NCBI GenBank assembly: GCA_036172455.1
Contig: JAXKVY010000005.1
Coordinates: 1 to 64,000, forward strand
Length of the DNA stretch: 64,000 bases
Direction of reading: 5' to 3'
From: Candidatus Izemoplasma sp.
GTDB taxonomy: Bacteria > Bacillota_I > Bacilli_A > Izemoplasmatales > Izemoplasmataceae
In this document: piece by piece, positions 3,024 to 55,473 of the stretch
How positions within the stretch are numbered: position 1 is the first letter of the stretch
Layout: the number at the start of each line of letters is the position of its first letter
The notes under the pieces: generated by a model
The model's database searches: none
Told to the model about the DNA's origin: nothing
The model's input: only the letters and a program-made list of their open reading frames with translations
Translations under genes and position numbers: made by a program

Positions 3024-3627
3024 TATTTCAATGTTGATTCACGAAGACATGCAAGTCTATAAAAATAAACCAGAGAAGGCCCCTAAAATAACGGTTGATG
3101 GCACACATCAAACAAGTAGTGCTCATGAGTCTCGAATTGAGATGAATCTTCATACAGGAACACATATGGATTTCCCTTTACATATGATTCCACAGGGAAA
3201 AACATCCGAAACGGAACAATTAAAGCCATTAATTGGCCAGGCAAAGGTTTTTGATATGACACAATGTAAAGACCATATTGGTCTAGATGATGTCAAAAAG
3301 CTCAACATTAATAAAGATGATTTTATTCTCTTTAAAACACAAAACTCAATGACAGATGCGTTCTTAATGGAGTTTATCTATGTCAATGAAGCAGCAAGTG
3401 AATATTTAAAGAACCAACAGATTCGTGGTGTCGGAATAGATGGTCTTGGAATTGAACGTGCACAAAAAGACCACCCAACTCATAAAATCCTACTTGGTGC
3501 TGATATCATTATTATTGAAGGGCTTAGGTTAAAAGACGTTCCTGAAGGTGATTATCAATTGTACGCATTACCACTTAAAATTAAAGATGTCGAAGCATTG
3601 CCATTACGGGCAATTCTCATCGATTAA
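3013..3627 (+). CDS. cyclase family protein (kynurenine formamidase-like)
   Basis: HTGTHMDFPLH metal-binding motif of putative cyclases. The track ORF started at 2890 inside zwf; the start is trimmed to the in-frame ATG at 3013. Confidence 0.7.
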   Translation: MIYDISMLIHEDMQVYKNKPEKAPKITVDGTHQTSSAHESRIEMNLHTGTHMDFPLHMIPQGKTSETEQLKPLIGQAKVFDMTQCKDHIGLDDVKKLNINKDDFILFKTQNSMTDAFLMEFIYVNEAASEYLKNQQIRGVGIDGLGIERAQKDHPTHKILLGADIIIIEGLRLKDVPEGDYQLYALPLKIKDVEALPLRAILID

Positions 3628-3630
3628 GAA

Positions 3631-3658
3631 AAGCGTTGCTCGTACGAGCAACGCTTTA
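3631..3658. terminator. bidirectional rho-independent terminator between convergent genes
   Basis: 12-bp perfect stem AAGCGTTGCTCG/CGAGCAACGCTT with T-rich flanks on both strands. Confidence 0.7.
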
Positions 3659-3660
3659 TT

Positions 3661-3960
3661 TTAAATCATGATACCAAGTAATTCATTAATCTTTTTCATT
3701 TTGCGTTTTATTTTGCGACTATTCCAAAAGGAATGTTTTAAGTGTTTCTTAATTTGACGGAGTAGTTTATAAACTTTTTTCAACTTGCGTTTGTTAATTT
3801 GTTTATTATTGTTGATGGAGTATTCAACGTTTTCTTTTAAATCATTCAAAGAGTCTTTAAATTTGTCTTTATTGGTACTACTTGCGACACGATCAAGTGC
3901 ACTTGCTAAATCATGTAAGTTTTCAATTGTTTTACGTCTTTTATTATCTAAATCAGCCAT
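3661..3960 (-). CDS. small basic coiled-coil protein (operon member 4 of the TIR/SPFH locus)
   Basis: About 99 aa starting at MADLDNK, with an AGGTGA RBS 5 nt upstream. The C-terminus is extremely K/R-rich (KKHLKHSFWNSRKIKRKMKK). It overlaps the stop of the upstream SPFH gene by about 10 nt. Confidence 0.5.
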   Translation of the reverse strand: MADLDNKRRKTIENLHDLASALDRVASSTNKDKFKDSLNDLKENVEYSINNNKQINKRKLKKVYKLLRQIKKHLKHSFWNSRKIKRKMKKINELLGIMI

Positions 3961-3968
3961 ATTGTCAC

Positions 3969-4844
3969 CTATAAATCCTTTCCGCATTTACTGCAGAAGT
4001 TGGCTTCTTTAGGGTTAGGATGACCACATTTGTTACAGAATACTTTATCCGTTTGAGGTCCTTGGTTAGGAATTTTAGCATCCTTTTTTATTTCTTTTCT
4101 GACCCCTTTACGAAGTTTTTTATTGTCATTAAATTCTGTATTATTTAAAATACTTTCTTTTTTTACATCCTTGAGTTTTTCAAGAAACGCTTCATCATAA
4201 TAAAACCGTTCAATAAAGAATTTGTTTAAGGTTACTCCATACTCAGTAAAAACAGGGTTTAGTAGTTCTTTTAATTGATTTGCAATCTCTTTTTCTTTAG
4301 TTGTAATAATTTGGATATCATCAAGGCCATATTTATTTTTGAGAAAGACCTTTGCGATGGTATTTCGAATTTCTTGATTAAGTTCACTTTTAAAGAAATC
4401 TTTTACCATCTCTTGTGTTAACTCTTGATGAGACCCTTGCACTTTTGAAAAGAGCTTCATTGAATTATCAATGGAGAACTTGTATGATCCATTTGCGCCG
4501 ACATCTGTGTGCATATCATATTTTTTGTCATAGACATCAATTTTGTTTGGCGTACCCCATTTGTTCTCAAGTTGCGCGGTCCGATTAATGTAGTAAATGT
4601 TACAATCAGTGATTGTCTTTTCTTTCTTGAGAAGTTTACTGAGGAAACCTGTGCCTTTAGTATTGACGACATAATACTCTTCACGATCATCAAATGCGCC
4701 TAAAAAAGCCCCTTTTCTTAAGAAAATTATGTCACAATCTTTACGAGCATAAATTTTAGATTTCTTTGTTAATGTTGTGACATCACTTTTCCAAATGACT
4801 GCCTCAGGATGTCCTTTAAATATGACTTCTGTACGTTTTGCCAT
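3969..4844 (-). CDS. SPFH/band-7 domain protein with C-terminal double zinc ribbon (YdjI-like)
   Basis: N-terminal and central similarity to the B. subtilis YdjI type (SPFH Band_7_1). The C-terminus FCNKCGHPNPKEANFCSKCG parallels YdjI NFCPNCG..ANFCPNCG. Confidence 0.6.
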   Translation of the reverse strand: MAKRTEVIFKGHPEAVIWKSDVTTLTKKSKIYARKDCDIIFLRKGAFLGAFDDREEYYVVNTKGTGFLSKLLKKEKTITDCNIYYINRTAQLENKWGTPNKIDVYDKKYDMHTDVGANGSYKFSIDNSMKLFSKVQGSHQELTQEMVKDFFKSELNQEIRNTIAKVFLKNKYGLDDIQIITTKEKEIANQLKELLNPVFTEYGVTLNKFFIERFYYDEAFLEKLKDVKKESILNNTEFNDNKKLRKGVRKEIKKDAKIPNQGPQTDKVFCNKCGHPNPKEANFCSKCGKDL

Positions 4845-4846
4845 AA

Positions 4847-5668
4847 CTATTCCTTTTCCTCTCTAGCTTTTAAGCTTTTAATTTTATTTTTAGCATGTGT
4901 ATTAATGTGTTTACTTAATGCAGGATGACTGTCTTTAAACTGTTTAACAGGTAATCTTGAAATACTCTTTCTTTTGTTTATTAACCCATATAGCCCACCA
5001 ATTGAAGCAATTATGATCAGATATTCTTGTGTATTAATGACTTGGTTAATCAAGGGGCTTGATATTTCTAATATGCTATTTAGTGCGTATATACCAAATG
5101 TAATAGCAAGAAATAAAATGGCGTAAGATAAAAAGTGCTTAAAGAGTAATGTAAGGTATGAAAAGATAATATTTGATACCCTGTATTGCGGATATTTAGT
5201 TTTAAGCATATAAGGATGTTTTACTCCCTTAAACGCTGATTTTGGAATGGTTAAATTCTCGAAATTATCAGGGTATTCTTTTTCCAATAATTCTTTTGTC
5301 CCTTCATTGAGATGTCCTTGATCGAGTGTTTCAAAGATGTCAAGTGCTTCTTGAGTAGTGAAATCATCTGTCAAAAGGTATTTTTTGTGCGTTTCATAAT
5401 ATATCCAAAAGATTATGAATTCTAATGTCTTTTTATAATAAAATTTAACCGGATAAGAAACATCATGTACACGTTTTGATAAGTATAGACCTTCAGTTAA
5501 AGCATCTTGTAATGCTTTAGAAAATTGGTTCACATCACCATTAGAAGCGATTTTGCTCACAACATCTTGAAAAGAGATTTCTGTTGCATCGTCGTTTATG
5601 ATTTCACCACAATTGTCACATATGATAGTGATACCATTTAAGGTTTTTTCACAACTGGGACACTTCAT
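4847..5668 (-). CDS. zinc-ribbon membrane protein (YdjH-position analog)
   Basis: N-terminal CPSC-x10-CDNC zinc ribbon and two C-terminal hydrophobic helices. Its ATG overlaps the TGA of the upstream gene (ATGA). Confidence 0.5.
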   Translation of the reverse strand: MKCPSCEKTLNGITIICDNCGEIINDDATEISFQDVVSKIASNGDVNQFSKALQDALTEGLYLSKRVHDVSYPVKFYYKKTLEFIIFWIYYETHKKYLLTDDFTTQEALDIFETLDQGHLNEGTKELLEKEYPDNFENLTIPKSAFKGVKHPYMLKTKYPQYRVSNIIFSYLTLLFKHFLSYAILFLAITFGIYALNSILEISSPLINQVINTQEYLIIIASIGGLYGLINKRKSISRLPVKQFKDSHPALSKHINTHAKNKIKSLKAREEKE

Positions 5669-7623
5669 GATGTCTCCCCCCTTAATGATAAATTAATCCG
5701 GTGTTTCTTTTTACGCTTTTTATGACGACAATGCATGAGCAAATCGATGACCAAATCATGTGTTTCATCAAGTTCAAATAACTTTTCAACAAGTTGAGAT
5801 TCAAGTAACTTATAGCGCTTTTTCTTACGAAGTTTAGCAATCGCTTTGTATAAATCAACTGTATTATTCACCTTCATACTAGCTAGTAGTAAGTAAAGAT
5901 ATTTTTTATTGCTAGTGTTATCGTATTTAAAGAGTTCTAAGGTGAGGCTGAGCGCTTCTTTATAGTCTTTATGTTCGAAGGCAATTAAGATTTCTTCATG
6001 TAAATGAGTGACTTTAGTTCGGTTTTCTTCAAGTGTTTCTGTGGTTTCTTTTTGATGTGCTTTAAACTTTACTAAGTAGTTTGTAATATATTTTGGAATA
6101 TGACTTCGATTAAAATCAGGGTGTTCCTTAATGCTTTCCATATCATCAAAGAGTGGTGTCAATTGATCGAAGTTGGGTGTGTCTTTATTCAGAGATTCAT
6201 TTAGTTGATCATCGGTATCAAACGCATATTTAATCAATAATTTGTTCCATGTATTTAAGATATGACGGTGACATTTTACATCAATATAGCTCTCTTTATG
6301 TTTAGGATTTAGCCGTGGCATATTGATATAATGCAGTAATTGTTCATATAACGCATCTTCAAAGGGTTTTATTGTTTTAGGATAATGTCCATCAACAAAT
6401 GGCGTATATTTTTTATACTGTTGATAAGCAGATTGTTGGTAACACGCCATGAGTTTATCTAGGTTTTCATCCTTTTGTGTAAAGGTATGAAAGACCTCTT
6501 CACTAGAAAATTCATTTTCTGCCAAAAAGAGTTGAAACCAAGCTTCTTGAGCGTTAGGTTTTAGGCTGAGGGCTTCTTTTGTCGTATCTATTGCGTCTTG
6601 ATAGTTTTGGTTTATAAGTTCAATATGACTTCTATTTAACAATTTGTCATATTCGTCTAATTGTGTTTTTTGACGTTTTTCTTGGGAGGTCGTGGTTTTT
6701 AGATTTGCTTCTTGTAAGCCATGATAAATGCGTTGTTTTAATTCTTGTAAAGCGCCATCAATATCAGTTGTAGCATCTATCCATTTAAATCCATCAAAGA
6801 AGTACTTAAAAGTTGATGTATGCTTAGTATCATCTATTTTAAACTCTAATCTGTTTTTCTTTAATTTCATAGCGATATCAAGTTCTTTACGAACATCTTG
6901 GCTAAGCATGGCACTTTCTGATGTTATCACTAAAAAGATATTTGCTTTCGTAATGGCATCTTCAATATTAGACCAATAATTGTCATTATCATTTGGTCGT
7001 AAATTCCTAGATGATATCCAACAGGTATAACCATCTGATTCTATAACATCCACAACGGTGTTCGCAATATCTTGTTCGGTCGAACGATAGGAGATAAAGA
7101 CATCTCTAGGAATGGAAGCATAATTTTCTTCTTCAATAATCTTTTGGTTGTATACCCGTTCGTATTCTTCGAGCTTACTGGGCATATTCGATTCTATAAA
7201 CGACATCACTAGTTGTTTATCTCGTAAATCACTATACGTAATCATATGATCAACGATTTTGGTGATATCAGTTTCTATCGTAAATGCATTTTGATTATAA
7301 AATTTCAATAAATAACGTCTAGCTCCAAATTTATAGTTGGCATAGGCATAGTAATAGGTAGCCAAAGTATCTTTAGGAATCAGACGTAAAATTTCTTTTG
7401 TGAAATGTAAGATATTTTTATGGTCATCAACTTCAACAGCACGGTTTAAATTATCCCTAAGTTTCGAAATTTGTTTGTGTTCTTTGGTCCCTTTTAGAGC
7501 GAATTCGAGACCATTGCTAACTAAAAATGTTGAGCCACAAGCCTCACACTTTTGGGTGGTTTGTTCATGATCAATCTCAATTGAACTACCACATGATGTA
7601 CATACGATCTTTGTTAACTCCAT
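5665..7623 (-). CDS. zinc-ribbon / TIR-domain / TPR-like helical protein
   Basis: The N-terminus CTSCG-x14-CEACG is a zinc ribbon. Residues about 174-300 (nt about 6724-7104) read DVFISYRS...CWISSRNLRPNDN...IFLVITSESAMLSQDVRKELDIA, a TIR fold with a conserved Glu. The C-terminal 350 aa are helical repeats. Start is set at MELTK, with a GGAGG RBS. Confidence 0.65.
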   Translation of the reverse strand: MELTKIVCTSCGSSIEIDHEQTTQKCEACGSTFLVSNGLEFALKGTKEHKQISKLRDNLNRAVEVDDHKNILHFTKEILRLIPKDTLATYYYAYANYKFGARRYLLKFYNQNAFTIETDITKIVDHMITYSDLRDKQLVMSFIESNMPSKLEEYERVYNQKIIEEENYASIPRDVFISYRSTEQDIANTVVDVIESDGYTCWISSRNLRPNDNDNYWSNIEDAITKANIFLVITSESAMLSQDVRKELDIAMKLKKNRLEFKIDDTKHTSTFKYFFDGFKWIDATTDIDGALQELKQRIYHGLQEANLKTTTSQEKRQKTQLDEYDKLLNRSHIELINQNYQDAIDTTKEALSLKPNAQEAWFQLFLAENEFSSEEVFHTFTQKDENLDKLMACYQQSAYQQYKKYTPFVDGHYPKTIKPFEDALYEQLLHYINMPRLNPKHKESYIDVKCHRHILNTWNKLLIKYAFDTDDQLNESLNKDTPNFDQLTPLFDDMESIKEHPDFNRSHIPKYITNYLVKFKAHQKETTETLEENRTKVTHLHEEILIAFEHKDYKEALSLTLELFKYDNTSNKKYLYLLLASMKVNNTVDLYKAIAKLRKKKRYKLLESQLVEKLFELDETHDLVIDLLMHCRHKKRKKKHRINLSLRGETS

Positions 7624-7711
7624 AGATAAATCCTCCCTAATATAAAGAAAAGAGCGACGAATCACTCTTTTAGATTGTATAAGTATTATGTCATAGCGTT
7701 CCCTTGTTAAA

Positions 7712-7741
7712 ATTATATCACAAGCAACCTAATCATTTCAA
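7712..7741 (-). promoter_or_regulatory. sigma-A type promoter of the TIR operon
   Basis: Minus strand TTGAAA - 17/18 nt - gTGaTATAAT (extended -10), about 90 nt upstream of the MELTK start codon. Confidence 0.5.
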
Positions 7742-7752
7742 AACTATTTTTC

Positions 7753-9048
7753 TCAAGTTTCCAAAATATAGCTCACAAGATGGGTCTTTTGATGAAAAAT
7801 CATGACAAAACCTTTGTAAATTAATAACGTGTCTAAGGTCGGATCAAACTTAATTGATTCAAACAGAATAGAGTCACCTTTTTTGGTGAGTTCACTAATC
7901 ATCTTATCTAGCATATAGTCTTGGTCTGTGTTGTCATTAGGTAAATCAAATGATAAGATGTTTACCTGTGTTTTATCTTGCATTGGAATATCTCTAATCT
8001 CATATCCATAAAGACCAACTTCAACATCATCTTTTAATAATGTGACTTGATGTATGTCAGATATTAGTTCCTCTGTGAGACGATATTTTTGCGTATAAGA
8101 AGTTGGTCTAAACTTTAAGGTATCGGTGACTTTTACATTGAGTAATGTTTTAAGAATATTGATACTTAAAGAGATATATGTAACAGCAACCATAATAGCT
8201 AAAATTTCCTTTTGAGGCCTTGGGTCGGTGAATAGCTCCATTGTCCCAATCATTATGCCAAGACCAATTAATGTTAAAGTTCGTATATAAAATAATGTCA
8301 TTTTATGTGTGTAGGTTTTATTTACAATTGAAATAATAAAATCAACAATTAATAAGAATGCGAGTGCAATCAATAGTGTCATTAAGAACCGTTCTGTATT
8401 GGTGCTGAGATTTTGAATATTTTGAAATAATACTACAACGGTAATACCCATAAGTAGATGCAATAATTTTAAGATATCTAATAATTGATATTGAATCAGT
8501 TGTTTAATATAATAAACAAAGATACTAAAGATCATGACTAAGTAAAGAATAAGGGCAACTGTTTGTCCGCCTTCACCAACCGAACTGCAATTATAATCGG
8601 TCCAACCACAACCAGTAATAGCTAAATGGATGTAGTCAATTACGATAAATAGCGGTAACAAAATCCACAGCTCTAAAGGTTTAATACTTCGAGAAATTAA
8701 TAGACTGTGTACACCTAATACGAGAATAAGCAGGAGATAAACAGTGATTAGGTTAGATAACTCAAGAGCATTTTGGAAGGTATAAAAGTACATCAAAATA
8801 TTACCGATAAGCCCAAAGAGTAAATACTTTTGTTCAATTTTTGATGGTACGTGAATCTTATCAAGATAGATGGCTAACGCAATCCCTAAAGCTAAAGCAA
8901 GTAAAAGTATGAGATTAAGAATGAGTGTAATGATATGATCAGAACGCGTTATAGAACTACTGTAAATGGAGACAATTCCCCAAATAAAAGGGGGATATAA
9001 GAAAAATATATAGGTTAATACATAGTATAATTTACTGACTTTTTTCAT
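7753..9048 (-). CDS. polytopic membrane protein with C-terminal soluble domain, unknown function
   Basis: About 10 predicted TM helices and a roughly 130-aa hydrophilic C-terminus. The ATG at 9048 has an AAGGAG RBS. Confidence 0.45.
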   Translation of the reverse strand: MKKVSKLYYVLTYIFFLYPPFIWGIVSIYSSSITRSDHIITLILNLILLLALALGIALAIYLDKIHVPSKIEQKYLLFGLIGNILMYFYTFQNALELSNLITVYLLLILVLGVHSLLISRSIKPLELWILLPLFIVIDYIHLAITGCGWTDYNCSSVGEGGQTVALILYLVMIFSIFVYYIKQLIQYQLLDILKLLHLLMGITVVVLFQNIQNLSTNTERFLMTLLIALAFLLIVDFIISIVNKTYTHKMTLFYIRTLTLIGLGIMIGTMELFTDPRPQKEILAIMVAVTYISLSINILKTLLNVKVTDTLKFRPTSYTQKYRLTEELISDIHQVTLLKDDVEVGLYGYEIRDIPMQDKTQVNILSFDLPNDNTDQDYMLDKMISELTKKGDSILFESIKFDPTLDTLLIYKGFVMIFHQKTHLVSYILET

Positions 9049-9123
9049 ATGAACCACTCCTTAATCCTATTATACCCTCTATGCTTCTATAATACTATAG
9101 ATACTGTTAGATTATCGATCAAA

Positions 9124-9148
9124 TAAAAAAAGCGCAAAGCGCTTTTTA
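9124..9148 (-). terminator. rho-independent terminator
   Basis: GCGCtttGCGC hairpin flanked by A7/T5. Confidence 0.6.
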
Positions 9149-9829
9149 GAGTTCAGTATATTCTCCGGGATTAAGTATTATGACGTCTGATTGGGAAACT
9201 TTATCTTTGAAATCATTAGGGTCTGCTTGGATTTGATCAAAAGTATTATAATGAATTGGAACCACTTTATCTGGCTTGATAAAATCTACTGCAATAACGG
9301 CATCATCAACATCCATTGTATAGTTCCCCCCAATGGGTAAAAAAGCAAGATCAATTAAACTGTTTTCTAATAATTTCATATCATATGTAAGTCCAGTATC
9401 TCCAGCATGATAAATTGTCTTATCGGCAACTTTGAGTAAAAAGCCACAAGGGGTACCCCCGTCATAAATCATATCGTTTTCGACATATCCTGATCCATGA
9501 AGCGCAGGTGTCATTTTAACGGTTCCAAAATCAACCGTAGCACGACCTCCAATATGCATCGCATGGATGTTTAAATCACGATCAATACTCTTTAATATTG
9601 TCGCAATTTCAGCGTTTGATATAATTAAAGCATTATTTTTCTTTGCGATTTCAATCGCATCACCCACATGATCGCCATGAGCATGTGTGATTAATACGTG
9701 TGTGATACCATCGATATCACGATCATTTTTTTTATAGACTGGGTTGTGTGTTAAAAAGGGATCAATGATTATTTTATAGTCTAATGCTTCAATTAATACA
9801 GCCGCATGTCCTAAAAATGTACATTTCAT
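9146..9829 (-). CDS. metal-dependent hydrolase, MBL fold (UPF0173 family)
   Basis: HAHGDH metallo-beta-lactamase motif; 227 aa. Confidence 0.8.
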   Translation of the reverse strand: MKCTFLGHAAVLIEALDYKIIIDPFLTHNPVYKKNDRDIDGITHVLITHAHGDHVGDAIEIAKKNNALIISNAEIATILKSIDRDLNIHAMHIGGRATVDFGTVKMTPALHGSGYVENDMIYDGGTPCGFLLKVADKTIYHAGDTGLTYDMKLLENSLIDLAFLPIGGNYTMDVDDAVIAVDFIKPDKVVPIHYNTFDQIQADPNDFKDKVSQSDVIILNPGEYTEL

Positions 9830-54218: not shown

Positions 54219-54584
54219 GTGAAATACTTGAAAACAAAAAGGATTCTAGACAAAATTGAATCTGGTGACTTAACAGCTGAAGAGGCATTTGAGAAAATGT
54301 ATCCAGTGACAAAAGTAAAACCAGGAAAACGTGCTACATTTATAAAGATAGATGTTCGTGTCCCAGATGAGTCTAAAGGTGTCAATACGTTTTTAAAAAT
54401 ATTGTTTGCGATTCCGATACCTATGATCTTTGCGCGAATGGGCTTGCGGTTAGGTAAACGATTTGCGAAATTAGACAATGATGAGATTGATTTTGATCAA
54501 CTATCACACCTGATCAAATATTCGAAAAATACGAAAATACAAGTAGATTCAAATGATGCACAAGTAGATATTAGAATTATTTAG
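54219..54584 (+). CDS. small protein with SHOCT-like N-terminal helix, paralog of 55108-55473
   Basis: GTG start. RILDKIESGDLTAEEAFEKM, one hydrophobic stretch, and a C-terminal ..KIQVDSNDAQVDIRII motif shared with the third gene. Confidence 0.4.
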   Translation: MKYLKTKRILDKIESGDLTAEEAFEKMYPVTKVKPGKRATFIKIDVRVPDESKGVNTFLKILFAIPIPMIFARMGLRLGKRFAKLDNDEIDFDQLSHLIKYSKNTKIQVDSNDAQVDIRII

Positions 54585-54594
54585 GAGGAATATT

Positions 54595-54951
54595 ATGAAT
54601 AATGTTATAGGAGAATGCCCAATATGTGGCGGAGAATTAGTTGTAAGTAAATTAAGTTGTACATCGTGTAGTACAGAAGTATCAGGAAAGTTTAAGTTAT
54701 CTAAATTTAATCATTTATCAAAAGAAGACTTATATTTTATTGAAGTGTTCATCAAAAATCGCGGAAATATCAAACAAATCGAAAAAGAACTGGGGATTTC
54801 TTATCCAACCGTTAAAAAGAACCTTGATGAAGTTATTGTACATTTAGGGTATGAGGTTACGGATGATGAAAAAGAGAAGAAAGAAGATGTTTTTAAGAAG
54901 TTAGAAAATGGAGAAATTACTGCGAAGGAAGCTGTCAAACTATTGAAGTAG
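54595..54951 (+). CDS. DUF2089-like zinc-ribbon + HTH protein with C-terminal SHOCT-like helix
   Basis: CPICGGEL...CTSC zinc ribbon; HTH LGISYPTVKKNLDEV; C-terminus KLENGEITAKEAVKLLK. GGAGG RBS. Confidence 0.55.
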   Translation: MNNVIGECPICGGELVVSKLSCTSCSTEVSGKFKLSKFNHLSKEDLYFIEVFIKNRGNIKQIEKELGISYPTVKKNLDEVIVHLGYEVTDDEKEKKEDVFKKLENGEITAKEAVKLLK

Positions 54952-54966
54952 ATAGGAGGCAATAAA

Positions 54967-55083
54967 ATGTGTATGTTTATGCATGACAACCTAATGGTTG
55001 ATTATCAGTTGGAACGTGAGAAAAATAAAATATTAATTGATTGTAACTGTAAACATAAAAAGCATGACCGAAAAAAATTATAA
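54967..55083 (+). CDS. 38-codon Cys-rich micro-ORF (MCMFMHDNLMVDYQLEREKNKILIDCNCKHKKHDRKKL)
   Basis: Not in the ORF track. ATAGGAGG RBS 7 nt upstream of the ATG, and it exactly fills the gap between the flanking genes. Confidence 0.3.
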   Translation: MCMFMHDNLMVDYQLEREKNKILIDCNCKHKKHDRKKL

Positions 55084-55107
55084 TATGAATCGAAAGGAGA
55101 AAGTAAA

Positions 55108-55473
55108 ATGGATGATAGAATGAGAATTTTAGAAATGATTGAAAAGAAACAAATTACTGCAGCTGAAGGCGCAGAACTATTAAAAGCATTAGATACAACT
55201 GAGGTAACAAAATTATCCCCAAAAAAAGACGCATTTAAAATGTTCCGTATCAAAATATTAAGTAATGATGGGGACAAAGTAAATGTTCAAATCCCAGTTG
55301 AATTTGCCAAAGTCGCACTAAAGAATGGCAAAGGATTTATGAAAATGGATCAATTAGGTGATCTTGATTTAGATGTTGATATGATCTTGGAAATGATTGA
55401 TAGTGGAACACTTGGTAAAATTGTCGATATTGAATCAGCTGATGGCGATACAGTCGAAATTGTCATCGAATAG
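55108..55473 (+). CDS. small protein with SHOCT-like N-terminal helix, paralog of 54219-54584
   Basis: RILEMIEKKQITAAEGAELLKAL; C-terminus ..KIVDIESADGDTVEIVIE; GAAAGGAGAAAG RBS. Confidence 0.45.
   Translation: MDDRMRILEMIEKKQITAAEGAELLKALDTTEVTKLSPKKDAFKMFRIKILSNDGDKVNVQIPVEFAKVALKNGKGFMKMDQLGDLDLDVDMILEMIDSGTLGKIVDIESADGDTVEIVIE

What the first reader, a model, noticed from the sequence alone, without database searches (positions are those of the whole stretch)
3969..7623. Resemblance to the Bacillus ydjG-ydjH-ydjI module, but without pspA
In B. subtilis, pspA (ydjF) is followed by ydjG (zinc-ribbon protein), ydjH (membrane protein) and ydjI (SPFH protein with a C-terminal NFCPNCG..ANFCPNCG zinc ribbon). 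YdjI has been reported to recruit PspA to the membrane. The three larger genes here match that order and those domain types: Zn-ribbon protein, Zn-ribbon membrane protein, then SPFH with a double Zn ribbon ending FCNKCG..ANFCSKCG. No PspA/IM30 gene is present, and the first protein has acquired a TIR domain. This points to an SPFH-scaffolded membrane module repurposed with a TIR effector, or conversely to the ancestral ydjGHI module being defence-related.
Basis: inference. Interest (0 to 1): 0.6.

Follow-up and report, generated by a model that had tools for sequence, protein, structure and literature searches.

The report
TIR enzyme operon with YdjI-like scaffold
A wall-less bacterium (Candidatus Izemoplasma) has a conserved four-gene operon that pairs a probable NAD-cleaving TIR enzyme with a membrane anchor, a YdjI-type SPFH scaffold protein and a small coiled-coil protein; only the scaffold is related to the Bacillus ydjGHI stress module, and no such pairing turned up in the defence-system catalogue or the papers searched.

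Summary
It runs from a promoter-like site (7741..7712) to a terminator hairpin (3630..3657):
- TIR652: Zn-ribbon, helical domain, TIR, TPR-like helices
- ZnTM273: Zn-ribbon plus C-terminal transmembrane helices
- SPFH291: Band_7_1 plus one C-terminal Zn-ribbon

Only SPFH291 is homologous to a ydj protein. It matches YdjI at E=5e-15 over the full length, with the same architecture. YdjH is a TPM-domain protein and shows no similarity to anything here. YdjG shares only a 22-30-residue Zn-ribbon. No PspA is detectable in the 64 kb window.

The real finding is the gene linkage. A ZnR-TIR protein and a YdjI-like SPFH-ZnR protein sit together in four different gene orders in Izemoplasmatales and Clostridia, and the cc108-type small protein accompanies them in three of those orders. 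The TIR partner is soluble with a separate anchor, or fused to 4-5 TM helices, or fused to one TM helix plus LRR or RCC1 repeats placed outside the cell by topology.

Clostridial versions add a weakly Snf7 (ESCRT-III)-like protein and a classical AAA ATPase. The putative catalytic Glu (E247) is invariant and aligns with E77 of SPARTA TIR-APAZ.

Best reading: a membrane-assembled, oligomerisation-activated TIR switch, either defence-like or stress-responsive. I found no described equivalent.

The parts
7712..7741 (-). Promoter-like site TTGAAA-18-TATAAT with an extended -10 TG (11 of 12 matches), upstream of the TIR gene.
   Evidence: A -10-like TATAAT also aligns in four orthologous loci (GTAGAAT in L001). 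This is a consensus match only: the region holds 34 promoter-like sites against 30 expected by chance.
7648..7671 (-). Leader hairpin of 10 pairs followed by a T-run, lying between the promoter and the RBS. Probably a transcription attenuator.
   Evidence: A hairpin plus T-run with a different stem sequence occupies the same position in L029, L031, L003 and L001. No Rfam family matches it.
5665..7623 (-). TIR652. Zn-ribbon (residues 4-34), helical domain (35-166), TIR domain (about 171-290), long helix (288-337), TPR-like helical repeats (341-633). No TM helix.
   Evidence: RBS AGGGAGGA precedes the ATG at 7623. AF2 model has mean pLDDT 86.8. Foldseek matches SPARTA TIR-APAZ at rmsd 2.8 A and TPR proteins.
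7525..7611 (-). N-terminal Zn-ribbon of TIR652 (C8, C11, C26, C29).
   Evidence: The four Cys are invariant in 36 sequences. This is the only stretch resembling YdjG.
6754..7113 (-). TIR domain of TIR652. The putative catalytic Glu E247 is the codon GAA at 6883..6885.
   Evidence: Pfam TIR_2 E=6.3e-15. E247 is invariant. It aligns with E77 in VLKEL of SPARTA TIR-APAZ. Codon checked. The TIR domain is the best-conserved part of the protein, at 61-87% identity.
4847..5668 (-). ZnTM273. N-terminal Zn-ribbon (5606..5665), an all-helical middle part, and hydrophobic helices at about residues 164-196 and 214-237. Probable membrane anchor. The start codon overlaps the TIR652 stop (ATGA).
   Evidence: It is a narrow family: 20 hits among 1.84 billion representatives, most of them 260-283 aa. 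No Pfam, PADLOC or NCBIfam family matches.
3969..4844 (-). SPFH291. YdjI-like Band_7_1 SPFH domain (4203..4757) plus one C-terminal Zn-ribbon (3972..4040). No TM helix.
3661..3987 (-). cc108. Small basic coiled-coil protein with conserved R17, H85, W88 and N89. The start is ATG 3987, which overlaps the SPFH291 end, or ATG 3951, where several homologues begin.
   Evidence: A homologous small gene lies directly downstream of the SPFH gene in all three Izemoplasma-type arrangements.
3630..3657 (.). A 12-bp hairpin with T/A runs on both sides, between the convergent cc108 and cyclase genes. Probable bidirectional terminator and end of the operon.
   Evidence: listed on the + strand.

Best explanation
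This is a four-gene operon, TIR652-ZnTM273-SPFH291-cc108, that most likely builds a complex at the cytoplasmic face of the membrane.

Shown:
- The four genes are tightly packed or overlapping.
- They share one promoter-like site and one terminator-like hairpin.
- They are conserved as a set.
- The TIR domain has the fold and the Glu at the position that is catalytic in SPARTA TIR-APAZ.
- SPFH291 is a YdjI homologue without a membrane segment.
- ZnTM273, or a fused TM domain in relatives, supplies the membrane segment.

Inferred:
- By analogy with B. subtilis, where YdjG/YdjH recruit soluble YdjI to the membrane, ZnTM273 anchors SPFH291 and TIR652. The Zn-ribbons present in all three proteins may act as docking elements.
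- SPFH proteins form large oligomeric rings. TIR NADases such as SPARTA and SARM1 become active only when brought together. The SPFH/cc108 assembly would therefore either keep TIR652 apart or cluster it.
- A membrane or surface disturbance (phage attack, pore formation, envelope stress) would trigger TIR-TIR contact. NAD+ would then be cleaved, either depleting it or making a signal nucleotide, and growth would stop.
- A conserved leader hairpin suggests expression is also gated by attenuation.

The module works like the YdjGHI scaffold with a TIR output in place of PspA. It is not a ydjGHI orthologue.
For: Operon structure.

TIR domain:
- Pfam TIR_2 E=6.3e-15.
- AF2 pLDDT 86.8; Foldseek to SPARTA TIR-APAZ rmsd 2.8 A over about 140 columns.
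- E247 is invariant in 36 sequences and aligns with E77 of TIR-APAZ.

SPFH291 is a YdjI homologue.

YdjI needs YdjG/H for membrane recruitment (PMC8581546). SamGHI acts independently of PspA (bioRxiv 10.64898/2026.02.06.704340).

Linkage across rearrangements:
- TIR-ZnTM-SPFH-cc in L003/L008, L009, L010/L012, L018, L029 and L031.
- TIR fused to 4-5 TM helices, then SPFH-cc, in L016/L017, L022 and L027.
- SPFH-cc-TIR with a 4039-aa TIR protein in L025.
- TIR-LRR, Snf7-like, AAA, SPFH and a small gene in L020, L032 and L034.
- Of 9 loci reached through the TIR protein alone, 7 have an SPFH gene within 6 kb.
- Every SPFH-family locus with enough flank has a ZnR-TIR gene nearby.

The leader hairpin is conserved.
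Against: - No biochemical or genetic data exist for any member.
- PADLOC-DB has no model for SPFH291 or ZnTM273, and cc108 has only weak coiled-coil matches; TIR652 hits only generic TIR models.
- The flanks in the window and its relatives are housekeeping genes, not a defence island.
- The module is absent from 72,556 plasmids. Only one weak SPFH hit appears among 50,697 phage records.
- Synteny with a close relative is complete (L029), and orthologues are spread across Izemoplasma-type MAGs at 45-83% identity. This looks like vertical inheritance of a lineage-wide function rather than a mobile defence gene.
- The TIR domain is unusually well conserved (61-87%).
- Ca. Izimaplasma HR1 has TIR plus ZnTM but no adjacent SPFH or cc gene, so the scaffold is dispensable or encoded elsewhere.
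- Physical interaction among the four proteins is inferred only from gene linkage.
Confidence: 0.5

Rival explanations
1. This is a housekeeping envelope or membrane homeostasis module of wall-less Izemoplasmatales. It would be functionally equivalent to Bacillus YdjGHI/SamGHI working without PspA. The TIR domain would act as an NAD-linked regulator or an assembly domain, not as a suicide or defence effector.
For: - The module is inherited vertically, with full synteny in L029.
- Orthologues are widespread in Izemoplasma-type genomes.
- Flanking genes are housekeeping genes.
- Nothing turned up on plasmids, and only one weak SPFH hit in phages.
- The TIR domain is under strong purifying selection.
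- SamGHI has PspA-independent roles as a membrane stress sensor.
- Clostridial relatives add a Snf7-like protein and an AAA ATPase, typical membrane-remodelling parts.
Against: - The invariant Glu at the catalytic position argues for an enzyme.
- By established knowledge, almost all characterised bacterial TIR enzymes act in conflict systems.
- Relatives carry hypervariable LRR, RCC1 or Ig-like repeats, predicted to be extracellular, on the same TIR core. This is typical of non-self sensors.
- ZnTM273 and the TIR652 C-terminal domain evolve fast: 22-28% and 32-40% identity, where SPFH291 keeps 65-70%.
Confidence: 0.3
2. One reading: the three genes are diverged orthologues of ydjG, ydjH and ydjI. 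pspA was lost and a TIR domain was inserted into the YdjG orthologue.
For: - SPFH291 is homologous to YdjI.
- The N-terminal Zn-ribbon of the TIR652 family profile matches the first Zn-ribbon of YdjG (hhalign E=1.7e-5, probability 79%, 30 columns).
- The gene order is the same: Zn-ribbon protein, membrane protein, SPFH.
Against: - The YdjH TPM domain is absent. There is no similarity in BLASTP, phmmer or hhalign.
- TIR652 lacks the second Zn-ribbon, the NTF2-like domain and the TM helix of YdjG.
- ZnTM273 matches YdjG only in a CxxC ribbon.
- The ZnTM273 family has 20 members, most about 270 aa, none resembling YdjG or YdjH in length or architecture.
- Gene order is not fixed within the family.
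Confidence: 0.08
3. The adjacency is fortuitous, and the four genes have unrelated functions.
For: None, beyond the lack of direct interaction data.
Against: - Start and stop codons are overlapping or nearly abutting.
- There is a single promoter-like site and a single terminator-like hairpin.
- The genes co-occur in four different orders and fusion states across Izemoplasmatales and Clostridia.
Confidence: 0.02

Closest known systems
Bacillus subtilis pspA-ydjGHI (samGHI) operon
   Same: - A soluble Band_7_1 SPFH protein with one C-terminal Zn-ribbon (YdjI homologue, E=5e-15) is encoded downstream of a Zn-ribbon protein and a membrane protein.
- The SPFH protein has no membrane segment of its own, so it probably needs a membrane partner.
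- Zn-ribbons recur in several subunits.
   Different: - There is no PspA, no TPM-domain YdjH, and no YdjG (two Zn-ribbons, NTF2-like domain, TM helix).
- In their place are a TIR enzyme, an unrelated Zn-ribbon/TM protein and a small coiled-coil protein.
- The SPFH proteins are only 21-22% identical.
Oligomerisation-activated TIR NADases: SPARTA TIR-APAZ, SARM1, Thoeris ThsB
   Same: - The TIR fold (rmsd 2.8 A to TIR-APAZ) and a Glu at the position of E77 in TIR-APAZ.
- Helical repeat domains flank the TIR domain, as in SARM1.
- PADLOC's ThsB and SAVED-TIR models hit the TIR domain only.
   Different: - The partners are not an Argonaute, ThsA or SAVED protein but an SPFH scaffold and membrane proteins.
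- It has an N-terminal Zn-ribbon.
- It is not in a defence island.
- The TIR sequence is far better conserved than in typical defence TIR proteins.
Toll-like receptors (architecture only)
   Same: Relatives in L020, L032, L034 and L025 have the TIR domain on the N-terminal side of one TM helix, and LRR or other repeats on the other side, extracellular by topology.
   Different: - The window protein itself has no TM helix and no repeats on the outside.
- The orientation is reversed (TIR N-terminal).
- The LRRs are of the BspA/LRR_5 type.
- This is a domain-architecture analogy only.
ESCRT-III/Vps4-type membrane remodelling pairs (Snf7 or PspA with a classical AAA ATPase)
   Same: In clostridial relatives the SPFH gene is preceded by a 192-195-aa protein with weak Snf7 similarity and a Cdc48/Vps4-type AAA ATPase.
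   Different: - The window operon has neither gene.
- cc108 shows no detectable similarity to PspA or to the Snf7-like protein (hhalign probabilities 0.06% and 2%).

Membership tests
pspA-ydjGHI / samGHI module | YdjI-type SPFH protein: Band_7_1 domain, one C-terminal Zn-ribbon, no TM helix | tested here: met
   Pfam Band_7_1 E=1.6e-16 and Zn_Ribbon_1 E=4.4e-8. BLASTP against B. stercoris YdjI gives E=5e-15 over the full length. No TM helix.
pspA-ydjGHI / samGHI module | YdjH-type membrane protein with a TPM domain | tested here: not met
   YdjH matches TPM_phosphatase at E=1.1e-23. ZnTM273 has no TPM hit, no BLASTP similarity and hhalign probability 0.5%. phmmer with YdjH found no ORF in the window.
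pspA-ydjGHI / samGHI module | YdjG-type protein: two Zn-ribbons, an NTF2-like domain and a C-terminal TM helix | tested here: not met
   Only one Zn-ribbon matches: 23 aa at E=3e-4, and 30 profile columns at probability 79%. TIR652 has no TM helix and is helical plus TIR. ZnTM273 matches 22 ribbon columns only. Its low-confidence model (pLDDT 44.8) is all-helical.
pspA-ydjGHI / samGHI module | A PspA/IM30 gene in the operon | tested here: not met
   phmmer with Bacillus PspA found nothing among 152 window ORFs. No candidate appears in the ORF list. None is present in any related locus. The rest of the genome could not be searched.
Catalytic TIR NADases | TIR fold | tested here: met
   Pfam TIR_2 E=6.3e-15. 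Foldseek probability 1.00 and rmsd 2.7-3.2 A to SPARTA TIR-APAZ, plus matches to MyD88, MAL and SARM1.
Catalytic TIR NADases | Conserved catalytic glutamate | tested here: met
   E247 is invariant in 19 and in 36 aligned sequences. It aligns with E77 in VLKEL of TIR-APAZ. That E77 is catalytic rests on my own knowledge of the SPARTA literature.
Catalytic TIR NADases | NAD+ cleavage activity | not testable with these tools
   Needs an enzyme assay.
Catalogued anti-phage defence systems (PADLOC-DB v2.0.0) | Match of the system's proteins to a defence-system model set | tested here: not met
   Only generic TIR-domain hits for TIR652 (SAVED_TIR 2.6e-9, ThsB 4.3e-5). Nothing for ZnTM273 or SPFH291. 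Weak coiled-coil noise for cc108.
ESCRT-III / PspA superfamily (tested for cc108) | Sequence or profile similarity to PspA or Snf7 | tested here: not met
   hhalign of the cc108 profile against PspA gives probability 0.06%, and against the Snf7-like 192-aa family 2%. No Pfam Snf7 or PspA hit.

The most novel reading that the evidence does not exclude
The ZnR-TIR proteins would be a family of bacterial receptor-type TIR enzymes. Their sensing part is either outside the cell (LRR, RCC1, Ig-like repeats) or within the membrane (a separate or fused TM module). They would signal to, or be held in check by, a YdjI-like SPFH scaffold that elsewhere partners with ESCRT-III-superfamily proteins (PspA in Bacillus; a Snf7-like protein plus a Vps4-like AAA ATPase in Clostridia). 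That would make this a previously undescribed system coupling membrane-damage sensing and repair to TIR-mediated NAD+ signalling. cc108 would be the minimal stand-in for the missing ESCRT-III-like partner.
Probability: 0.2. Interest if true: 0.85.

Novelty: new variant of a known kind. Interest (0 to 1): 0.6.

Why it matters
TIR enzymes and SPFH scaffolds are each well studied. I found no described system that joins them, either in PADLOC-DB v2.0.0 or in five full-text searches.

If the link is functional, it would give:
- a concrete mechanism by which the state of the membrane controls a TIR NADase;
- a bacterial family with Toll-like-receptor-like topology (sensor repeats outside, one TM helix, TIR inside);
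- a second, independent case, besides PspA-YdjI, in which a YdjI-type SPFH protein sits next to ESCRT-III-superfamily machinery.

That third point bears on the open question of what YdjI/SamI-type SPFH proteins actually do. The module is small (four genes, about 4 kb) and could be tested directly in Bacillus subtilis.

Tried and rejected
- No significant similarity was found by hhalign in these comparisons:
  - cc108 against PspA.
  - cc108 against the Snf7-like family.
  - ZnTM273 against the fused TM domains of P0060 and P0061.
  - ZnTM273 against the TIR652 N-terminus.
  - The Snf7-like family against human CHMP2A and against PspA.
- The metagenome scan with the SPFH alignment returned only 12 close loci. 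It gave no view of distant YdjI-like proteins, so no phylogeny of the wider YdjI family was built.
It hit B. stercoris, B. rugosus, B. tequilensis and B. spizizenii, not strain 168.
- tblastn against plasmids (no match) and phages (one weak hit).
- Rfam on 3400..9300 gave only a sub-threshold chance hit.
- The gene upstream of the TIR gene (434 aa, multi-TM, 9057..7753) was rejected as a fifth member. It is conserved only in the close relative L029, and unrelated proteins take its place in L001 and L031.
- Literature searches for SPFH or Band-7 together with TIR and defence terms found no paper describing the association.
- The listing of cluster members gave organism names for one cluster only, Clostridiales/Christensenellales.

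Full report
**What is there**

The window comes from a Candidatus Izemoplasma MAG contig; source names are attached to the identical proteins. On the minus strand four ORFs are packed head to tail:
- TIR652, 7623..5665
- ZnTM273, 5668..4847; its ATG overlaps the TIR652 stop as ATGA
- SPFH291, 4844..3969; it starts 2 nt after the ZnTM273 stop
- cc108, 3987 or 3951..3661; it overlaps or abuts the SPFH291 end

A strong promoter-like site (TTGAAA-18-TGnTATAAT, 7741..7712) and an AGGGAGGA ribosome-binding site precede the ATG at 7623. A 12-bp hairpin at 3630..3657 closes the unit. GC content (0.30-0.34) is close to that of the flanks.

**Domains**

- TIR652 has a Zn-ribbon, with C8, C11, C26 and C29 invariant, and a TIR_2 domain (E=6.3e-15, residues 175-289). 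It has no TM helix.
- An AlphaFold2 model built on 36 homologues (mean pLDDT 86.8) shows this layout: Zn-ribbon 4-34, helical domain 35-166, TIR about 175-285, a 50-residue helix, then helical repeats to residue 633.
- Foldseek against the PDB matches the TIR part to SPARTA TIR-APAZ (rmsd 2.7-3.2 A, 21-22% identity), SARM1, MyD88 and MAL. It matches the remainder to TPR proteins.
- The Glu in S-x-D-V-R-K-E247-L is invariant in the family. It aligns with E77 in VLKEL of TIR-APAZ, which I know from the SPARTA literature to be the catalytic residue.
- ZnTM273 has an invariant N-terminal CxxC..CxxC ribbon, a helical middle part and hydrophobic C-terminal helices. It matches no Pfam, NCBIfam or PADLOC family.
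- Its family is tiny: 20 hits among 1.84 billion cluster representatives, most of them 260-283 aa.
- SPFH291 is Band_7_1 (E=1.6e-16) plus one C-terminal Zn-ribbon, and has no TM helix.
- cc108 is a basic coiled-coil protein with a conserved H-x-x-W-N motif and no family match.

**Test of the ydjGHI resemblance**

I fetched a Bacillus pspA-ydjGHI locus using the ydjG primer printed in PMC8581546. The locus is L005, from B. stercoris. Its proteins behave as published (PMC11237479):
- PspA_IM30
- YdjG: two Zn-ribbons, an NTF2-like domain and a TM helix
- YdjH: a TPM domain (E=1.1e-23)
- YdjI: Band_7_1 plus a Zn-ribbon

| Comparison | Result |
|---|---|
| SPFH291 vs YdjI | BLASTP E=5e-15, 22% identity, end to end including the ribbon |
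| SPFH291 vs YdjI | phmmer E=2e-10; the two also align in one family alignment |
| ZnTM273 vs YdjH | nothing |
| ZnTM273 vs YdjG | 22 ribbon columns, probability 33% |
| TIR652 vs YdjG | 23 aa, E=3e-4; family profile 30 columns, probability 79%; ribbon only |
| PspA, YdjG, YdjH vs all 152 window ORFs | no hit |

The resemblance is therefore homology for one gene (ydjI) and a shared use of Zn-ribbons and a membrane partner for the rest. It is not an orthologous module.

**What the comparative data show**

The four-gene set recurs in Izemoplasma-type contigs with different flanks: L003/L008, L009, L010/L012, L018 and L031. In the close relative L029 the flanks are identical to the window.

More distant relatives keep a ZnR-TIR protein next to an SPFH-ZnR protein, with a small gene downstream of the SPFH gene, but rearrange them:
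- In L016/L017, L022 and L027 the TIR protein (809-897 aa) carries 4-5 C-terminal TM helices and there is no separate ZnTM gene.
- In L014/L015/L025 the order is SPFH-cc-TIR. The TIR protein is a 4039-aa giant with Flg_new, RCC1 and WD40-like repeats.
- In clostridial contigs (L020, L032, L034) a ZnR-TIR-TM-LRR_5 protein is followed by a 192-194-aa protein, a classical AAA ATPase, the SPFH-ZnR gene and further small genes. In these loci the small gene after the SPFH gene does not share the cc108 motif.

Of nine loci reached through the TIR protein alone, seven have an SPFH gene within 6 kb. The exceptions are HR1 (L001: TIR plus ZnTM only) and L023. Every SPFH-family locus with enough flank has a ZnR-TIR gene nearby.

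Linkage kept through fusion, fission and reordering is strong evidence that the proteins work together. It also shows that the TIR protein is always tied to the membrane, either directly or through ZnTM273.

Within TIR652 the conservation pattern is uneven:
- The TIR domain is the best-conserved part (61-87% identity).
- The C-terminal helical domain is far less conserved: 32-40% among most full-length orthologues and 16-18% against the TM-fused relatives.
- ZnTM273 keeps only 22-28% identity in genomes where the SPFH protein keeps 65-70%.

**Link to ESCRT-III-like proteins in relatives**

- The 192-aa clostridial protein matches Pfam Snf7 along nearly its whole length. The score is below threshold (E=6.4e-4, 19.9 bits against a 27.3-bit cut-off; residues 16-171 against profile positions 6-157 of 171).
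- Its family profile hits the archaeal CdvB/Vps2-like chain 9s9j at E=0.029.
- The adjacent ATPase is of the Cdc48/Vps4 type, with a weak Vps4_C hit in L020.
- hhalign against single PspA or CHMP2A sequences was negative, so this link remains suggestive only.
- If it is real, YdjI-like SPFH proteins sit next to ESCRT-III-superfamily proteins both in Bacillus (PspA) and here.
- The window operon lacks these genes. cc108 shows no detectable similarity to PspA or to the Snf7-like protein.

**Mechanism**

Shown:
- the operon structure;
- the TIR fold with a Glu at the catalytic position;
- the YdjI homology;
- the membrane tether;
- the conserved linkage.

Inferred:
- ZnTM273 anchors the soluble SPFH291 and TIR652, as YdjG/H anchor YdjI.
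- The oligomeric SPFH/cc108 assembly controls the proximity of TIR652 molecules.
- A membrane or surface disturbance brings the TIR domains together. That contact activates NAD+ cleavage, as in SPARTA or SARM1, and growth stops.

I put 0.5 on this membrane-assembled, oligomerisation-gated TIR switch.

Whether its biological role is anti-phage defence or a lineage-wide envelope-stress response is open.
- For defence: the catalytic TIR, the hypervariable repeats (extracellular by topology) in relatives, and the fast-evolving sensor-side parts.
- For a housekeeping stress role (0.3): vertical inheritance, housekeeping flanks, no plasmid copies and only one weak phage hit, no PADLOC model, and a very conserved TIR domain.

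**Regulation**

A terminator-like hairpin with a T-run lies between the promoter-like site and the ribosome-binding site (7671..7648). Hairpins with different stem sequences occupy the same position upstream of the orthologous TIR genes in L029, L031, L003 and L001. No Rfam family matches. This suggests attenuation control, which would fit a potentially toxic product.

**Novelty and verdict**

I found no description of an SPFH-TIR system in PADLOC-DB v2.0.0 or in five full-text searches. The components belong to known kinds. The combination and the receptor-like family around it appear to be undescribed, so I rate it a new variant of a known kind, with interest 0.6.

Noticed in passing
window 7648..7671 (-), with promoter-like site 7712..7741 (-): A terminator-like hairpin plus T-run lies in the 5' leader of the TIR gene. 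Hairpins with different stem sequences sit at the same place upstream of the orthologous TIR genes in L029, L031, L003 and L001. This is probably an attenuator. No Rfam family matches.
   Followed up: partly
L032 10509..14116; L020 11442..14199; L034 7104..11212: Clostridial relatives encode a set of genes next to the ZnR-TIR-LRR gene: a 192-194-aa protein with weak Snf7 (ESCRT-III) similarity (Pfam E=6.4e-4; PDB CdvB E=0.029), a Cdc48/Vps4-type AAA ATPase, the SPFH-ZnR protein and two or three more small proteins. In L032 the three small proteins sequenced here begin MFKSK or MGIF.
   Followed up: partly
L025 8284..14927 (gene runs off the locus): A 4039-aa protein has the N-terminal TIR_2 core followed by Flg_new, RCC1 and WD40-like repeats. 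It lies directly downstream of an SPFH-cc pair. Many other family members combine the ZnR-TIR core with one TM helix and LRR_5, Ig-like or FGE-sulfatase domains, a topology like that of Toll-like receptors.
   Followed up: partly
L001 8001..10797 (Ca. Izimaplasma HR1 type): This relative keeps the TIR and ZnTM genes but has an acetyltransferase where the SPFH and cc genes would be. The scaffold pair is therefore lost or encoded elsewhere in that genome.
   Followed up: no
L033 1562..8744: A Christensenellales/Clostridiales-type locus: SIR2-family gene, ZnR-TIR (511 aa, 3 TM helices), HTH, a truncated SPFH-like protein (Band_7_1 E=7.7e-5), a 342-aa protein with only weak coiled-coil-family matches, a relative of the Snf7-like protein, an AAA ATPase, and a trypsin-like protease.
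   Followed up: no
window 54219..55473 (+): A DUF2089 protein (Zn-ribbon, HTH and SHOCT-like tail) is flanked by two small proteins with SHOCT-like N-termini. SHOCT-like domains are discussed as partners of PSP systems in PMC11237479. No link to the TIR operon was found.
   Followed up: no
window 3951..3987 (-): The start of cc108 is ambiguous. The first ATG (3987) overlaps the end of SPFH291 by 19 nt. Several homologues begin at the position of the second ATG (3951), which has a GGTGA upstream.
   Followed up: partly
window 7753..9057 (-): A 434-aa protein with about nine TM helices and no family match lies just upstream of the operon. It is conserved only in the close relative L029. Unrelated proteins occupy this position in L001 and L031, so it is not part of the module.
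   Followed up: yes
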